From: Escherichia phage vB_EcoM-UFV06
Strand: one strand, 5' to 3'
Length of the DNA: 64,000 bases
Sequence record: OP555980.1
Below, piece by piece: positions 71 through 5,069 of this stretch. The notes beneath the pieces are model-generated. The model saw only the letters and a list, made by a program, of their open reading frames with translations, did no database searches and was not told the DNA's origin. Within the stretch, counting starts at the first letter, position 1, and each line of letters begins with the position of its first letter. The position numbers and the translations under genes were made by a program.

Positions 71-526
71 TTAAAAGAGGTTGTTCATTATTCGGTAAAG
101 TGAAGGACCCATCACATATTGCCACTGAGTACGAGGAATAAGAGCAAAAGCATCCATCTCTGGAATCATAACGCCATCTTTATTTTCAAAATAAGACTCG
201 CAATGGCAATTTCTGAACATCTCATGCTCTACTGGAATCGTATAATAAAATAACTGTAAGTCTTTATTACTAGAATATTTAAATACACCTAGGTCTTCTA
301 GAAGGTCTGGATTATAATTGCTAAAACCGGTCTCTTCTAAGCATTCTCTTTTTGCAGCTTCCAGTGCATTCAAATCAGAACTTTCTACACGTCCCTTTGG
401 AATATCCCAGCGATGTGCCATCATTCCAGGCTTACGAGAACCAGTAACTCGTCCCATAAATAAATCTTTATCTTCTGTCATAAAGATAATACCAGCTGAT
501 AGTGTTTTCATTTTAATTTCCTGCAT
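71..526 (-). CDS. nudE: Nudix hydrolase NudE (e.1)
   Basis: 151 aa as in T4 NudE; Nudix box visible (GRVESSDLNALEAAKRECLEETGF). Confidence 0.85.
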   Translation of the reverse strand: MQEIKMKTLSAGIIFMTEDKDLFMGRVTGSRKPGMMAHRWDIPKGRVESSDLNALEAAKRECLEETGFSNYNPDLLEDLGVFKYSSNKDLQLFYYTIPVEHEMFRNCHCESYFENKDGVMIPEMDAFALIPRTQWQYVMGPSLYRIMNNLF

Positions 527-849
527 TCAGTGATAAAGTTATTTAAATTTTGAGTGTATTTCTTTTCATCAAAAATCTTTTGTTGTCTGCGTAGCCGCCA
601 TGGCATTTCAATGAACGTGTACCATATCCCAGATAATATTGCTGCTGTAAAAATATTAACAAGTATGGTTAAAAGAATCCAATCTCCTATTCTGTCCATT
701 GGATTTTTTATAAAAAAGTAAAATACGAATGATGTCACAGGACCTATTAATACATCAGTAGGAATTAGCTGACGCTTTAGTTCATACTTCACAGGTTCAC
801 TTGGAAGGTATAGTGATGGCTTTGACATATTCTCTACATTCCTTAACAA
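508..849 (-). CDS. hypothetical small membrane protein (e.2-like position); start uncertain
   Basis: 113-aa ORF with hydrophobic segments (FVFYFFI, WILLTILVNIFTAAILSGIW); syntenic with T4 e.x genes. Confidence 0.5.
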   Translation of the reverse strand: MLRNVENMSKPSLYLPSEPVKYELKRQLIPTDVLIGPVTSFVFYFFIKNPMDRIGDWILLTILVNIFTAAILSGIWYTFIEMPWRLRRQQKIFDEKKYTQNLNNFITECRKLK

Positions 850-1402: not shown

Positions 1403-1423
1403 TCCTACTTACTTCAAGTAATA

Positions 1424-1437
1424 GGGGCCGAAGCCCC
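1424..1437. terminator. GNRA-tetraloop stem-loop, likely bidirectional terminator/RNA stability element
   Basis: GGGGCCGAAGCCCC. Confidence 0.5.
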
Positions 1438-1443
1438 TTATCA

Positions 1444-2037
1444 TTATTTCAGAGAATTAATATATTCCTGAACATCGGCAGAGGTAGTTTCAACCCCGGA
1501 AATATTACCGTTAAAGGTTTCAACTCGAGCAAGAGTATCTTCAATATCAACCTTAGTCAGTGCTGCAATTTCAACTACATCATCAGCAGTACTAATTCCG
1601 AGGGCATTCGCGGCGCGAGTTTCACGGATATATTCCAATTTAACTGCAAGTTCTTGGCGAGCATCATCCAATTCAACTACTTTCTTGGCGATTTCAATTC
1701 GCATTTCAGCATACCCATCAGCTTTAGTAGTTAACTGCTCAGCTGTTCGACGATATAGCAAGCCGAGTTTAGCATGCATTGTTACATCTTGACCTTCGGA
1801 AAGAAGCTTGCGAATTTCACGCTCTTTTGATTCGGCCTGTCGATTCTTTTCGATAACAAGTTCACGAATACGTTTTTCTTCATTAATAGATTTAACAGAA
1901 GCAGTTTTTAAATCTTTAATTTTATCAAGTAGTTTTGCTGCTGCAGCAGTATACTGTTCTTCAACAGATAGATTTTTAGCCATAGCAGAACCAAGTTTAG
2001 TGCGAATAAACTCAACAATTTTCTTCAGTGTGTTCAT
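1444..2037 (-). CDS. hypothetical coiled-coil protein, possibly PspA/IM30-like
   Basis: 197-aa ORF, long heptad-like charged helices; resemblance to PspA architecture is by eye only. Confidence 0.5.
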
Positions 2038-2080
2038 AGTATTTCCTTAGGTTGATTAAGATTTAAAATCCGTGAGAGTA

Positions 2081-2257
2081 TTATACTCCGGATAGTTTGT
2101 AAACTATTTCAACATCGCCTTTTGCTGCTTTATAACCTTCAGCCCAAGATATAACCGAGTTTTTATCCGAAGATTCAAATTCTGGCATTGGGCTTTCGCC
2201 AATGTTCACGCAGTATGTTTCTTCATTTTCGTCAAACCAAATAATTAAAGTAGTCAT
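2081..2257 (-). CDS. hypothetical small protein (58 aa), not in ORF track
   Basis: ATG at 2257-2255 with GGAG SD 7 nt upstream; reads MTTLIIWFDENEETYCVNIG...KLSGV, stop at 2083-2081. Confidence 0.35.
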   Translation of the reverse strand: MTTLIIWFDENEETYCVNIGESPMPEFESSDKNSVISWAEGYKAAKGDVEIVYKLSGV

Positions 2258-2325: not shown

Positions 2326-2601
2326 TTATTTCATATTATTGAAATATTCTTCTGCAATTTCGTCGTTATCATGGTAAACTTTAGAAGACAGTTTAACATA
2401 ACCTTCAGCAGTGAACATGTTAATCACAACCTTTACAGTATACCACTGACCATCTTCATTACCCATTACTGCGTAAGTTTCAAACATCGGATGATCAGGA
2501 CCGATAACTTTAATATCATTCACTGTACGACCAAAATCTTCTGAAACACATTTCATAAAGAAGTTGAACAGTTCGCCGTAATTATCCATTTCATTCTCCA
2601 A
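2326..2601 (-). CDS. hypothetical protein
   Basis: 91-aa ORF preceded by early-promoter motif (TTTACA-17-TACTAT) and GGAG SD. Confidence 0.5.
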   Translation of the reverse strand: MENEMDNYGELFNFFMKCVSEDFGRTVNDIKVIGPDHPMFETYAVMGNEDGQWYTVKVVINMFTAEGYVKLSSKVYHDNDEIAEEYFNNMK

Positions 2602-2795: not shown

Positions 2796-2822
2796 AAAAA
2801 GCCCCAACCTTTTGGTCGGGAC
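2796..2822 (-). terminator. intrinsic terminator for minus-strand transcripts
   Basis: Minus strand cccgacc-aaaa-ggttggg followed by gcttttt; just downstream of stop at 2831. Confidence 0.55.
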
Positions 2823-2830
2823 TAAGAATG

Positions 2831-3304
2831 TTATTTGATTTGTTTAGCAGACCAAATGCGGTCTTTAATAATTTTTTGGATGTCTTCAACATACTCAAGA
2901 GAATGAGCATGTGGGTTATCTTTAAAGCTATGAGCACGAGCTAGCTTTTGGCCTTCAGTTTTGATTACTAAAAGCTCTTTAAGGATAGCTTCATATTTGG
3001 AGATAATTCCTTTAACGATATTTTTTTCTTGTGCGACTTTAGGATCTGCTTTAGGAGCAGGTTTACCCGAAGCCTTTGCAAAAGCAGCGCCAGTAGCAAC
3101 TAAACTTTTCCAGGCCATACTAACTGCATTTCCCGTAAATCCTTCCGCTTTCATGTCGCGTGCGAACTGGAATCGTGATTCATCAGAAGCATCTTTGTAA
3201 GAATATTTACCCGCTGCAATGGCTGCTTTTGCGACAGCTTGAATTTCGGTGCTAGATGCTTCATTTAACACCGCTTCATTTAAAAATTGAGTATATGATT
3301 TCAT
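2831..3304 (-). CDS. internal-protein-like head protein with capsid-targeting sequence
   Basis: N-terminus MKSYTQFLNEA resembles the T4 IP targeting sequence MKTYQEFIAE with L-x-E cleavage motif; own TATAAATA upstream; terminator hairpins on both sides. Confidence 0.6.
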   Translation of the reverse strand: MKSYTQFLNEAVLNEASSTEIQAVAKAAIAAGKYSYKDASDESRFQFARDMKAEGFTGNAVSMAWKSLVATGAAFAKASGKPAPKADPKVAQEKNIVKGIISKYEAILKELLVIKTEGQKLARAHSFKDNPHAHSLEYVEDIQKIIKDRIWSAKQIK

Positions 3305-3340
3305 CTTATTTCCTGTTTTAATTCGTGGATTTAATATACT

Positions 3341-3348
3341 TATTTATA
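3341..3348 (-). promoter_or_regulatory. late-promoter motif TATAAATA upstream of internal-protein-like gene
   Basis: Plus TATTTATA at 3341-3348, about 36 nt upstream of ATG at 3304. Confidence 0.45.
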
Positions 3349-3354
3349 CTAAAA

Positions 3355-3378
3355 AGCCCCAACCTTTTGGTCGGGGCT
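3355..3378 (-). terminator. intrinsic terminator (near-identical copy of the 2796-2822 element)
   Basis: AAAAAGCCCCAACCTTTTGGTCGGGGCT versus AAAAAGCCCCAACCTTTTGGTCGGGACT at 2796. Confidence 0.55.
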
Positions 3379-4054: not shown

Positions 4055-4130
4055 TGGTCGAGGCAGTAGGGATCGAACCTACGACCCAGGACTTAGAAGG
4101 TCCTTGCTCTTCCTTCTGAGCTATGCCCCG
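4055..4130 (-). tRNA. tRNA-Arg (anticodon UCU), CCA encoded
   Basis: Hand-folded cloverleaf; anticodon loop CTTCTAA; T-arm GTAGG/TTCGATC/CCTAC; acceptor CGGGGCA/TGCCTCG. Confidence 0.8.
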
Positions 4131-4134
4131 TAAT

Positions 4135-4210
4135 TGGGGTGACCGATGGGAGTCGAACCCATGACTACGAGAATCACAATCTCGAGTTCTACCAACTGAA
4201 CTACGGCCAC
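4135..4210 (-). tRNA. tRNA, anticodon GUG (His by code; tentative, no G-1)
   Basis: Cloverleaf with U8, A14, G18G19, T-loop TTCGACT; anticodon loop TTGTGAT; CCA encoded. Confidence 0.55.
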
Positions 4211-4324
4211 ATTAATACCTACTCCAACAATCATGATGTCTTCACACGAAATTAAGAGAAGAGTGATCAGTTCAACCCCTATAATCGCGTCAAGTAGATA
4301 TTAATGTGACAGTTGTCACAAATT

Positions 4325-4399
4325 TGGCGGACGTGATAGGATTCGAACCTATAACCAATCGCTTAACAGGCGATCGCTCTGCCATTGAGCTACACATCC
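4325..4399 (-). tRNA. tRNA-Asn (GUU)
   Basis: Cloverleaf; anticodon stem ATCGC/GCGAT, loop CTGTTAA; T-loop TTCGAAT; CCA encoded. Confidence 0.8.
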
Positions 4400-4403
4400 A
4401 AAT

Positions 4404-4490
4404 TGGTGGGGAGTGATGGAGTCGAACCACCCGAGTCGCAATGACAATGAATTTACAGTCCACACCGCTACCTCTACGGGATAACTCCCC
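4404..4490 (-). tRNA. tRNA-Tyr (GUA), long variable arm
   Basis: 87 nt, 3-bp D-stem, anticodon loop CTGTAAA, 15-nt variable arm, T-loop TTCGACT; CCA encoded. Confidence 0.7.
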
Positions 4491-4496
4491 TTAATT

Positions 4497-4571
4497 TGGT
4501 GGCCCTGGGTGGAATTGAACCACCATCTGGCGATTATGAGTCGCTTGCTTGAACCTTCCAGCTACAGGGCC
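4497..4571 (-). tRNA. tRNA with anticodon CAU (Met or lysidine-modified Ile, as in T4 tRNA-Ile)
   Basis: Cloverleaf; anticodon loop CTCATAA; T-arm GGTGG/TTCAATT/CCACC; acceptor GGCCCTG/CAGGGCC. Confidence 0.75.
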
Positions 4572-4572
4572 T

Positions 4573-4648
4573 TGGTGCTGATTGACGGAATCGAACCGCC
4601 GACATCCTCATTACAAGTGAGGTGCTCTACCTACTGAGCTAAATCAGC
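4573..4648 (-). tRNA. tRNA-Thr (UGU)
   Basis: Cloverleaf; anticodon stem CCTCA/TGAGG, loop CTTGTAA; T-loop TTCGATT. Confidence 0.8.
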
Positions 4649-4653
4649 AAAGC

Positions 4654-4743
4654 TGGCGGAGGCGATAGGATTTGAACCTATGAATCGCCGGAGCGACTGC
4701 CGGTTTTCAAGACCGGTGCATTAAACCACTCTGCCACGCCTCC
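4654..4743 (-). tRNA. tRNA-Ser (UGA), long variable arm
   Basis: 90 nt; anticodon stem CCGGT/ACCGG, loop CTTGAAA; T-loop TTCAAAT; CCA encoded. Confidence 0.8.
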
Positions 4744-4745
4744 AG

Positions 4746-4819
4746 TCTCCATACAAGGATTTGAACCTTGGACCTCCTGATCCCAAATCAGGCGCTCTAC
4801 CAAACTGAGCTACACGGAG
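4746..4819 (-). tRNA. tRNA-Pro (UGG), CCA not encoded
   Basis: Anticodon stem CCTGA/TCAGG, loop TTTGGGA; T-arm CAAGG/TTCAAAT/CCTTG; only 2 nt from tRNA-Ser 5' end. Confidence 0.8.
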
Positions 4820-4829
4820 TAAATTAAAT

Positions 4830-4903
<74 letters not shown>

Positions 4904-4908
4904 AAATT

Positions 4909-4995
4909 TGGTGCGAGAAGTGGGACTCGAACCCACAAGGAAATCATTCCGCAGCATTTTAAGTGCTGTGCCTTTACCAATTTGACCATTCTCGC
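4909..4995 (-). tRNA. tRNA-Leu (UAA), long variable arm
   Basis: 87 nt; anticodon stem CAGCA/TGCTG, loop CTTAAAA; T-loop TTCGAGT; CCA encoded. Confidence 0.8.
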
Positions 4996-4996
4996 G

Positions 4997-5069
4997 CTGG
5001 GAATAAAGGATTCGAACCTTTGCATCTAGCAGTCAAAGTGCTATGCCTTACCAACTTGGCTAATTCCCA
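4997..5069 (-). tRNA. tRNA-Gln (UUG), U1:A72, CCA not encoded
   Basis: Anticodon stem TAGCA/TGCTA, loop CTTTGAC; T-loop TTCGAAT; 1 nt from tRNA-Leu 5' end. Confidence 0.8.

What the first reader, a model, noticed from the sequence alone, without database searches (positions are those of the whole stretch)
1444..2037. Coiled-coil protein with PspA/IM30-like architecture among early genes
The 197-aa protein is almost entirely charged helix with a short amphipathic N-terminus, reminiscent of phage-shock protein A. If real, a phage-encoded PspA-like factor could stabilise the inner membrane during infection or interfere with host envelope-stress signalling. Resemblance is judged by eye only.
Basis: inference. 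Interest (0 to 1): 0.4.

Follow-up and report, generated by a model that had tools for sequence, protein, structure and literature searches.

The report
T4 e.6: a phage PspA-like protein

Summary
The ORF at 1444..2037 (minus strand, 197 aa) is real. It is the orthologue of phage T4 gene e.6 (98.5% aa identity) in a Tequatrovirus genome. The protein is detected in T4 infection (early RNA, middle protein), and homologues occur in about 1,100 phage records.

- **Profile-profile alignment:** the e.6 family aligns collinearly with PspA/Vipp1 from residue 1 to about 140 (hhalign probability 92%, E 6e-7). Reversed and shuffled controls score 19-25 against 48.6.
- **Structure:** AlphaFold2 gives an N-terminal amphipathic helix plus a long helical hairpin, and the top eight Foldseek PDB hits are all Vipp1.

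The homology is not new. A 2021 genome announcement reported HHpred 99.9% between a T4 e.6 homologue and E. coli PspA. A 2022 paper proposed renaming PHROG 1203 "phage shock protein A", with an anti-abortive-infection role.

Function is untested, and CRISPRi knock-down in T4 shows no fitness cost in the laboratory. My best inference is a stand-alone, phage-supplied inner-membrane stabiliser that preserves the proton-motive force after host transcription is shut off. The reading is correct, the finding is modestly interesting, and it is already known at the annotation level.

The parts
1444..2037 (-). e.6 coding sequence (197 aa plus stop), a PspA/IM30-like protein of PHROG 1203
   Evidence: ORF list. 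PHROG 1203 E 1.6e-87. 98.5% aa identity to T4 e.6. Annotated e.6 in phage Aplg8 at the syntenic position.
1972..2031 (-). Residues 3-22: N-terminal amphipathic helix alpha0, the putative membrane anchor
   Evidence: AF2 helix 3-22, at low pLDDT as expected for an unpacked helix. Hydrophobic moment 0.45 against 0.42 for PspA. Aligned to PspA alpha0 by hhalign. Net charge +4, family mean +3.5, against 0 in enteric PspA.
1798..1965 (-). Residues 25-80: helix alpha1, first arm of the hairpin
   Evidence: AF2 helix 25-80 with pLDDT 82-95. hhalign columns aligned to PspA alpha1.
1783..1797 (-). Residues 81-85: hairpin tip (EGQDV)
   Evidence: AF2 loop 81-85. hhalign places it opposite the PspA tip 'KERED'. 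It is the main site of insertions and deletions in the family.
1603..1782 (-). Residues 86-145: helix alpha2/3, second arm of the hairpin, carrying the most conserved family motif [12 protein letters not shown]
   Evidence: AF2 helix 86-145. Invariant K90, L91, L94 and R96. Aligned to the PspA 'LARAAL..K' segment.
1447..1602 (-). Residues 146-197: short C-terminal helices, possibly shortened alpha4 and alpha5
   Evidence: AF2 helices 151-159, 166-173 and 186-196. The C-terminal region alone is not significant against PspA (prob 2.3%). A forced extension pairs 'D..L.RVETF' with PspA 'DEAMARFESF', and 'DV..Y..SLK' with 'I..QLAQLKAK'. The alignment to Vipp1 extends to e.6 residue ~169.
2041..2048 (-). 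Shine-Dalgarno sequence AAGGAAAT, 3 nt upstream of the ATG
   Evidence: Read directly from the sequence.
1421..1441 (-). GC-rich UUCG-loop hairpin directly after the e.6 stop codon; a weak terminator or RNA-stabilising hairpin, since no U-tract follows
   Evidence: Pattern scan. RNA fold -14.3 kcal/mol, z = -2.9. Listed as the 'e.6' terminator in sister phage UFV13 (PMC5931544).
2633..2661 (-). T4 early-type sigma-70 promoter (TTTACA, 17 nt spacer, TG-TACTAT) heading the e.8-e.7-e.6 unit
   Evidence: Consensus scan and the sequence 'ctgTTTACAtccctgttcttctatgGTACTATac'. T4 e.6, e.7 and e.8 RNAs are classed as early. The promoter assignment itself is inference.
2326..2589 (-). e.8 homologue (phrog_2678), co-transcribed upstream gene
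   Evidence: ORF list. The PHROG match covers residues 5-91, so the ATG at 2589 is the likely start. Annotated e.8 in Aplg8.
2081..2257 (-). 58-aa gene in the e.7 position (phrog_5461), immediately upstream of e.6

Best explanation
The gene is the orthologue of T4 e.6, a compact (197 aa), highly diverged, phage-specific member of the PspA/IM30/Vipp1 branch of the ESCRT-III superfamily.

**Shown:**
- It keeps the family's N-terminal amphipathic helix alpha0 and the long alpha1-alpha2/3 hairpin, in the same order and register as PspA.
- It is transcribed early and the protein accumulates by mid-infection in T4.
- It travels alone, with no conserved pspB/C/F-like neighbour.
- Knock-down has no fitness cost in the laboratory.

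**Inferred mechanism:**
1. T4 shuts off host transcription within minutes, so the infected cell cannot induce its own sigma-54-dependent psp operon. This rests on established T4 biology, not on a test run here.
2. The phage supplies its own PspA-like effector instead.
3. The cationic alpha0 docks on the cytoplasmic face of the anionic inner membrane at stressed or leaky sites.
4. The hairpins polymerise ESCRT-III-style into a coat that limits proton leakage.
5. The proton-motive force is thereby kept up during infection. Threats to it include puncture by infecting or superinfecting tails, overload with phage membrane proteins, premature holin triggering, and membrane-depolarising abortive-infection effectors.
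6. The benefit would be conditional, which would explain both dispensability in the laboratory and strong conservation in nature.
For: **Identity**
- 100% DNA identity of the region to Escherichia phage vB_EcoM-UFV09.
- 98.5% aa identity to T4 e.6, with synteny.

**Homology to PspA**
- hhalign gives 92.1%, E 6.3e-7, 138 collinear columns from residue 1.
- Reversed and shuffled controls reach at most 24.7 against 48.6.
- Vipp1 alone gives 89%. The distal half of the family alone gives 94%.
- An hmmsearch of the family profile against PDB sequences finds weak but collinear Vipp1 hits (query 4-143 to chain 4-145, E 1.8-4.4).
- Foldseek ranks 1-8 are all Vipp1, followed by CdvB2.
- Published: HHpred 99.9% to 4WHE_A and HHblits against pdb70.

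**Architecture**
- AF2 helices 3-22, 25-80 and 86-145.
- alpha0 hydrophobic moment 0.45, and net charge +4 against 0 in enteric PspA.

**Expression**
- Early RNA and middle protein in T4.
- An early-type promoter at 2633-2661.

**Stand-alone gene**
- The neighbours differ completely in RB43 (between nrdD and nrdG) and in Aeromonas phage 65 (next to genes 31 and cd).

**Conditional role**
- CRISPRi-ART knock-down of T4 e.6 is classed 'Not Fit', meaning no fitness cost was detected.
- Conservation is strong: 22 invariant columns over 30 sequences down to 47% identity.

**Precedent**
- Other phages carry canonical PspA/IM30 genes, for example Acinetobacter phage ME3.
Against: - No experiment addresses membrane binding, oligomerisation or any phenotype.
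- Single-profile HMM methods see nothing. No Pfam PF04012 hit at E<=10 was found for any of 30 family members. There was no NCBIfam PspA hit, and a profile search of 1.84 billion proteins returned only the phage family.
- hhalign against enteric PspA alone gives only 42%, and the T4-proximal half of the family alone gives 18%. The signal therefore depends on profile diversity.
- Foldseek E-values are marginal (1e-3 at best) and the rmsd values are large.
- The C-terminal 52 residues do not match PspA alpha4/alpha5 significantly, although alpha5 contacts matter for ESCRT-III-type polymerisation.
- The PspA 'EDP' junction motif is not conserved as such.
- No fitness cost on knock-down is also what a gene without an important role would show.
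Confidence: 0.5

Rival explanations
1. Regulatory mimic or decoy. e.6 uses its PspA-like hairpin to bind host Psp components: the AAA+ activator PspF, which PspA normally inhibits through residues 1-144, or the sensors PspB/PspC. It would thereby block or hijack the host envelope-stress response rather than act on the membrane itself.
For: The region of e.6 that aligns with PspA (residues 1-138 to PspA 1-140) coincides with the crystallised PspA fragment 1-144 of entry 4WHE. From memory of Osadnik et al. 2015, not read here, that fragment is the minimal PspF-binding domain. The hosts listed are mostly Enterobacterales and Aeromonas. From memory, not tested here, these carry PspF-PspABC systems. 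The protein is made from early transcripts.
Against: T4 shuts off host transcription early (established knowledge). Repressing a sigma-54 host operon would therefore add little, and freeing host PspA could not raise its level. Identity to E. coli PspA is only 10-13% over the aligned columns, so conservation of a specific PspF-binding surface is not evident. The strongly cationic alpha0 points to lipid binding. No interaction data exist.
Confidence: 0.15
2. Dedicated counter-defence or lysis-timing factor. e.6 is not a general membrane guardian. It would antagonise one class of membrane-depolarising abortive-infection effector, as proposed for PHROG 1203 in PMC9409062. Alternatively it would modulate T4's own holin and lysis-inhibition system.
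For: The anti-Abi hypothesis is published for the Kuttervirus homologue. The gene is patchy in Kuttervirus (4 of 15 genomes) and mobile between genome contexts, as accessory counter-defence genes often are. It is dispensable in a defence-poor laboratory host. In T4-like genomes it lies a few genes from the endolysin gene e.
Against: Among T4-like phages the gene is nearly universal (1,099 records) and highly conserved, unlike typical fast-evolving counter-defence genes. No target system is known. Proximity to gene e is weak evidence, because the neighbourhood is not conserved in distant phages. This reading overlaps mechanistically with the best explanation and differs only in specificity.
Confidence: 0.2
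3. A generic coiled-coil protein with no real evolutionary or functional tie to PspA. The resemblance would reflect shared heptad composition. The true role would be something else, such as a scaffold, or the 'host specificity protein' and 'tail completion protein' labels seen in some records.
Against: Reversed-sequence and block-shuffle controls preserve composition and local periodicity, yet they score 19-25 against 48.6. The alignment is end-anchored and collinear from residue 1, with the hairpin tips coinciding. Foldseek's first eight hits out of 705 are all Vipp1. An independent HHpred result of 99.9% is published. I found no evidence behind the 'host specificity' and 'tail completion' labels, and the gene is expressed early rather than late.
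Confidence: 0.05

Closest known systems
T4 e.6 family: PHROG 1203, UniProt P39224, Klebsiella phage Metamorpho gp163, Salmonella phage SeF3a Gp_125
   Same: This is the same protein family. It is 98.5% identical to T4 e.6, gives a full-length PHROG 1203 match and occupies the same genomic slot between e.5 and e.7/e.8. The PspA homology has already been stated for Metamorpho gp163 and for SeF3a Gp_125.
   Different: There are only a few substitutions relative to T4. The neighbouring e.7-position gene and the e.2-e.4 region differ from T4.
E. coli PspA (Pfam PF04012; PDB 4WHE, residues 1-144)
   Same: The order of elements is the same: amphipathic alpha0, a junction, then the alpha1-alpha2/3 hairpin with the tip at the same position. 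The profile-profile alignment is collinear over about 140 residues. The alpha0 hydrophobic moments are comparable.
   Different: - Identity is about 10-13%, below every single-HMM threshold.
- e.6 is 197 aa against 222, with a shortened C-terminal region that is not significantly similar.
- alpha0 carries net charge +4 against 0.
- There is no psp operon context and no PspB/C/F partners.
- It is expressed from a phage early promoter, not a sigma-54 promoter.
Cyanobacterial Vipp1/IM30 (Synechocystis sll0617, PDB 7O3W; Nostoc Vipp1, PDB 6ZVR)
   Same: This is the best structural match: Foldseek ranks 1-8, prob 1.0, 14-17% identity. It is also the best single-sequence hhalign target, at 89% over 166 columns reaching into alpha4. 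Both have a positively charged alpha0.
   Different: e.6 lacks the Vipp1-specific C-terminal extension (alpha6). TM-scores are only 0.43-0.53 with large rmsd, because the AF2 monomer is compared with polymer conformers. Ring or rod assembly by e.6 is unknown.
ESCRT-III proper (archaeal CdvB/CdvB2; yeast Snf7)
Canonical phage-encoded PspA/IM30 proteins, e.g. Acinetobacter phage vB_AbaM_ME3 A0A172Q0S7 (229 aa)
   Same: This is a phage-borne member of the same superfamily. It shows fold similarity to the e.6 model (Foldseek BFVD rank 8, prob 0.99, E 0.04).
   Different: The ME3 protein is of PspA length and is named 'PspA/IM30 family protein' in its UniProt record. That suggests a more recent capture or a less diverged lineage. 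e.6 is a separate, older, phage-specific clade that is not recognised by Pfam.

Membership tests
T4 e.6 family (PHROG 1203) | Full-length match to the family HMM and high identity to T4 e.6 | tested here: met
   PHROG 1203 E 1.6e-87, residues 1-197 on profile 1-199/200. 98.5% aa identity to T4.
T4 e.6 family (PHROG 1203) | Syntenic position in Tequatrovirus genomes, between e.5 and e.7/e.8 and downstream of the tRNA cluster | tested here: met
   Annotated region of phage Aplg8, window ORFs, tRNAs at 4055-5069.
PspA/IM30 family (Pfam PF04012) | Score above the Pfam gathering threshold for PF04012 | tested here: not met
   No PF04012 hit at E<=10 for the window protein or for any of 30 family members. 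A control PspA sequence scored 166.5 bits. e.6 is therefore a remote homologue, not a Pfam-defined member.
PspA/IM30 family (Pfam PF04012) | Profile-profile homology across alpha0-alpha3 in the same order and register | tested here: met
   hhalign prob 92.1%, E 6.3e-7, 138 columns. Controls reach at most 24.7 against 48.6. 89% against Vipp1 alone, but only 42% against enteric PspA alone. Published HHpred 99.9%.
PspA/IM30 family (Pfam PF04012) | Long alpha1-alpha2/3 helical hairpin fold | tested here: met
PspA/IM30 family (Pfam PF04012) | N-terminal amphipathic helix alpha0 for membrane binding | tested here: met
   Helix 3-22. Hydrophobic moment 0.45 against 0.42 for PspA and 0.57 for Vipp1, with a family mean of 0.40. 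Membrane binding itself was not tested.
PspA/IM30 family (Pfam PF04012) | C-terminal helices alpha4 and alpha5 that mediate inter-subunit contacts | tested here: inconclusive
   Three short helices are predicted at 151-196. The C-terminal region alone gives hhalign prob 2.3%. A forced extension gives plausible motif pairing. The Vipp1 alignment reaches residue ~169.
PspA/IM30 family (Pfam PF04012) | Self-assembly into rings or rods, with membrane binding and protection | not testable with these tools
   This needs purified protein with EM and liposome assays, or at least multimer modelling. Only monomer prediction was available.
Enterobacterial Psp system (pspF-pspABCDE) | Operon context with PspB/PspC sensors and the PspF activator | tested here: not met
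   The neighbours are e.5, an e.7-position gene and e.8, all of unknown function. The context is entirely different in RB43 and Aeromonas phage 65.
ESCRT-III superfamily (Snf7/CHMP/CdvB) | Structural similarity to ESCRT-III core domains beyond generic helical hairpins | tested here: inconclusive

The most novel reading that the evidence does not exclude
e.6 is an autonomous, virus-encoded ESCRT-III-type polymer that T4-like phages deploy minutes after infection to reseal and armour the host inner membrane. A strongly cationic alpha0 and a shortened C-terminus would make it independent of the host PspBC/PspF circuitry. By holding the proton-motive force it would neutralise a whole class of membrane-depolarising abortive-infection effectors and prevent premature holin firing. 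That would make it a general, mechanism-level counter-defence rather than an inhibitor of a single system.
Probability: 0.25. Interest if true: 0.7.

Novelty: already known. Interest (0 to 1): 0.35.

Why it matters
PspA/Vipp1 proteins are the bacterial arm of the ESCRT-III membrane-remodelling superfamily. A phage-specific version is conserved in about 1,100 T4-like and related phage genomes. It sits in the best-studied phage of all and still carries the label 'hypothetical protein'.

If e.6 does protect the inner membrane, three things would follow:
- It would explain how T4 keeps the cell energised after it has silenced the host's own stress responses.
- It could reveal a generic way for phages to blunt defence systems that kill by depolarisation.
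- It would give a minimal 197-residue PspA for structural work.

At a practical level, the widely propagated 'host specificity protein' label should be replaced by 'PspA/IM30-like protein'.

The claim is limited. The homology has already been noted in print (PMC7862958, PMC9409062), knock-down has no laboratory phenotype, and the function is entirely untested.

Tried and rejected
**Searches that gave nothing**
- **Single-sequence and single-profile searches.** These were Pfam, NCBIfam, phmmer against the PDB and an hmmsearch of the family profile against 1.84 billion representatives. None linked e.6 to PspA; one search returned only the roughly 200-aa phage family (45 representatives). The one exception was a set of weak collinear Vipp1 hits in the PDB (E 1.8-4.4).
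- **AFDB50 Foldseek.** The library was unavailable.
- **Diverse PspA sequences.** The search for homologous proteins with E. coli PspA and a genome-contig scan returned only Enterobacterales sequences (78% identity or more). The PspA profile therefore stayed shallow (Neff 1.8) and my hhalign probability (92%) is lower than the published HHpred figure (99.9%).
- **Literature.** I found no experimental work on e.6 or on phage PspA. The one hit looked off-topic from its title and abstract and was not read.

**Tests that came out inconclusive**
- **C-terminal-only hhalign.** It was not significant.

**Ideas rejected**
- **Late promoter for e.6.** The nearest TATAAATA on the minus strand (3341-3348) serves a different ORF, and a terminator separates it from e.6.
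- **'Host specificity protein' and 'tail completion protein' annotations.** I found no evidence behind them, and the gene is expressed early.
- **Recent capture of the host pspA gene.** Identity to E. coli PspA is only about 10-13%.

Full report
**1. What is at the coordinates**

The window is a Tequatrovirus (T4-like) genome. Its first 6 kb are 100% identical to Escherichia phage vB_EcoM-UFV09 and its sister isolates, and 95-97% identical to many Shigella and Escherichia T4-like phages.

The ORF at 1444..2037 on the minus strand encodes 197 aa from ATG to TAA. A strong Shine-Dalgarno sequence (AAGGAAAT) lies 3 nt upstream of the ATG. A GC-rich UUCG-loop hairpin follows directly after the stop codon. 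The same hairpin is tabulated as the 'e.6' terminator in sister phage UFV13 (PMC5931544).

The protein is the orthologue of phage T4 gene e.6. It is 98.5% identical to the T4 sequence and is annotated e.6 at the syntenic position in phage Aplg8, between e.5 and e.8, with nudE and e on one side and the tRNA cluster on the other.

It matches PHROG 1203 ('unknown function') end to end at E 1.6e-87. tblastn finds it in 1,099 phage records from Escherichia, Klebsiella, Shigella, Aeromonas, Enterobacter, Yersinia, Citrobacter, Salmonella, Cronobacter and other hosts, down to 33% identity.

In T4 the protein is detected by mass spectrometry and classed 'early RNA, middle protein' (PMC9697503 supplement).

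**2.

- 34% of residues are charged.
- Two AlphaFold2 runs were made, on a 30-sequence and a 52-sequence alignment (mean pLDDT 75 and 79). Both give about 83% helix: helix 3-22, a junction, helix 25-80, a five-residue turn, helix 86-145, then three short helices.
- Residues 2-19 have a hydrophobic moment of 0.45, comparable with E. coli PspA (0.42) and Synechocystis Vipp1 (0.57).
- An early-type promoter (TTTACA-17-TG-TACTAT, 2633-2661) heads the e.8, e.7-position, e.6 unit.

The description is accurate.

**3. Testing the PspA idea**

*Searches that failed to find the link.* Pfam shows no PF04012 hit at E<=10 for this protein or for any of 30 family members. NCBIfam shows none. A phmmer search of PDB sequences finds nothing. 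A profile search of 1.84 billion representative proteins returns only the compact phage family, 45 representatives of about 200 aa each.

*First hint.* An hmmsearch of the family profile against PDB sequences listed Vipp1 chains at E 1.8-4.4. This is insignificant, but the match is collinear (query 4-143 to chain 4-145).

*The decisive test: profile-profile comparison.* A 52-sequence e.6 family alignment (A2, down to 18% identity to the query) was compared with a small PspA/Vipp1 alignment (A3). A3 holds five enterobacterial PspA sequences plus Synechocystis Vipp1 as printed from the PDB.

| Comparison | Probability | E-value | Aligned columns |
|---|---|---|---|
| A2 vs A3 (PspA + Vipp1) | 92.1% | 6.3e-7 | 138 (e.6 1-138 to PspA 1-140) |
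| A2 vs Vipp1 alone | 89.1% | 2.3e-6 | 166 |
| Divergent half of the family vs A3 | 94.1% | 1.3e-7 | 153 |
| A2 vs enteric PspA alone | 41.7% | 2.7e-4 | 167 |
| T4-proximal half of the family vs A3 | 17.8% | 1.4e-3 | 61 |

In the main comparison alpha0 lies on alpha0 and the hairpin tip EGQ-D lies opposite KERED. The signal depends on profile diversity, but it is always anchored at residue 1.

*Controls.* Coiled coils give false positives, so I ran the following controls.

| Control | Score (real = 48.6) |
|---|---|
| One alignment reversed | 19.2 and 19.4 (probability 1.2-1.3%) |
| Both alignments reversed | 45.1, restoring the match as expected |
| 40 column shuffles | maximum 19.4 |
| 40 shuffles of 14-column blocks | maximum 24.7 |

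These had E 1.2e-3 to 1.7e-2, probability 0.99-1.00 and 14-17% identity. Archaeal ESCRT-III CdvB2 followed.

In the viral structure library the first five hits are e.6-family proteins, including Ackermannviridae-type phages. Rank 8 is a protein named 'PspA/IM30 family protein' from Acinetobacter phage ME3.

**4. What differs from PspA**

- The C-terminal 52 residues are shorter than the alpha4-alpha5 region of PspA. Alone they are not significantly similar (probability 2.3%). A forced extension pairs 'D..L.RVETF' with PspA 'DEAMARFESF' and 'DV..Y..SLK' with 'I..QLAQLKAK'. This is suggestive only.
- alpha0 is markedly cationic. The net charge of the first 22 residues is +4 here and averages +3.5 in the family (range +1 to +5), against 0 in enteric PspA and +2 in Vipp1.
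- Identity to E. coli PspA is about 10-13%, so this is an old phage lineage and not a recent capture.
- There is no psp-operon context. The neighbours are genes of unknown function. The neighbourhood is entirely different in RB43 (between nrdD and nrdG) and in Aeromonas phage 65 (beside genes 31 and cd). The gene evidently works without a dedicated phage partner.

**5. What the literature already says**

A 2022 paper on Salmonella phages found by HHblits against pdb70 that Gp_125 of Kuttervirus SeF3a, a member of phrog_1203, 'is homologous to PspA'. It noted the gene in 4 of 15 Kuttervirus genomes and proposed the annotation 'phage_shock_protein_A' for the PHROG. It also hypothesised an anti-abortive-infection role through preservation of the proton-motive force (PMC9409062).

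I found no experimental study. The CRISPRi-ART genome-wide knock-down of T4 lists e.6 as 'unknown function, phrog_1203', with prior essentiality 'UNKNOWN' and the result 'Not Fit', meaning no detectable fitness cost (PMC11879866 supplement).

The homology is therefore already known, although it has not reached the database annotations. These still read 'hypothetical protein' or an unsupported 'host specificity protein'.

**6. How it most likely works**

*Shown.* The protein has PspA-like alpha0 plus hairpin architecture. Its RNA is early and the protein accumulates by mid-infection. The gene is stand-alone. It is strongly conserved yet dispensable in the laboratory.

*Inferred.* T4 abolishes host transcription within minutes (established T4 biology), so the host cannot mount its own sigma-54/PspF-dependent Psp response. 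The phage therefore brings its own effector. The cationic amphipathic alpha0 would bind the anionic inner leaflet at stressed sites. The hairpins would polymerise ESCRT-III-style and reduce proton leakage. This would sustain the proton-motive force that T4 needs for macromolecular synthesis and for holding its holin in check.

The benefit would show mainly under membrane insult. Such insults include tail puncture at high multiplicity, superinfection, phage membrane-protein load and depolarising defence effectors. I put about 0.9 on the homology and about 0.5 on this effector mechanism.

*Rivals.*
- A PspF/PspBC-binding decoy (0.15). This is weakened by host shut-off and by the very low identity.
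- A narrowly specific counter-defence or lysis-timing factor (0.2). This overlaps mechanistically with the main model.
- An unrelated coiled coil (0.05). This is contradicted by the controls and by the Foldseek ranking.

**7. Verdict**

Novelty is low because the link is in print. The remaining interest is that a conserved early gene of the best-studied phage encodes a minimal ESCRT-III/PspA-type protein whose function nobody has tested. The experiments to do so are straightforward.

Noticed in passing
window 2800-3378 (minus strand): A 157-aa ORF (2831..3304, phrog_2280, unknown function) is bracketed by two nearly identical ~36-nt terminator hairpins, at 3355-3378 and 2800-2823. A perfect T4 late-promoter consensus TATAAATA (3341-3348) precedes it. 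It looks like a late-expressed cassette inserted with duplication of the rnaC-side terminator.
   Followed up: partly
window 2081-2257 (minus strand): The gene in the e.7 position is a 58-aa protein of phrog_5461. It is not T4 e.7, which is 336 nt and belongs to phrog_7266. This looks like a gene replacement immediately upstream of e.6.
   Followed up: partly
window 508-849 (minus strand): A 113-aa TTG-start ORF matches only the C-terminal half of membrane-protein phrog_2203 (profile positions 80-166) plus phrog_35580. It overlaps the 3' end of e.5 by 53 nt. T4 e.3 and e.4 have no counterpart here, which suggests a deletion or fusion in the e.2-e.4 region.
   Followed up: no
window 4055-5069 (minus strand): The cluster holds 11 tRNA genes (Arg, His, Asn, Tyr, Met, Thr, Ser, Pro, Gly, Leu, Gln). 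From memory, T4 has eight, so this set is larger. It matches the set annotated in phage Aplg8.
   Followed up: no
window 1421-1441: The hairpin after e.6 (GGGGCC-UUCG-GGCCCC) has no U-tract, and the e.5 ribosome-binding site follows it within about 20 nt. It may therefore act as a partial terminator or an mRNA-stabilising 3' structure rather than a full stop.
   Followed up: partly
public records of e.6 homologues: Many GenBank and UniRef entries label this protein 'host specificity protein', and one labels it 'tail completion protein'. I found no supporting evidence for these labels, and early expression argues against a virion role. They appear to be propagated mis-annotations.
   Followed up: partly
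BFVD entry A0A172Q0S7, Acinetobacter phage vB_AbaM_ME3: An unrelated myophage carries a 229-aa protein that UniProt already names 'PspA/IM30 family protein'. Phages therefore seem to have acquired PspA-type genes at least twice.
   Followed up: no
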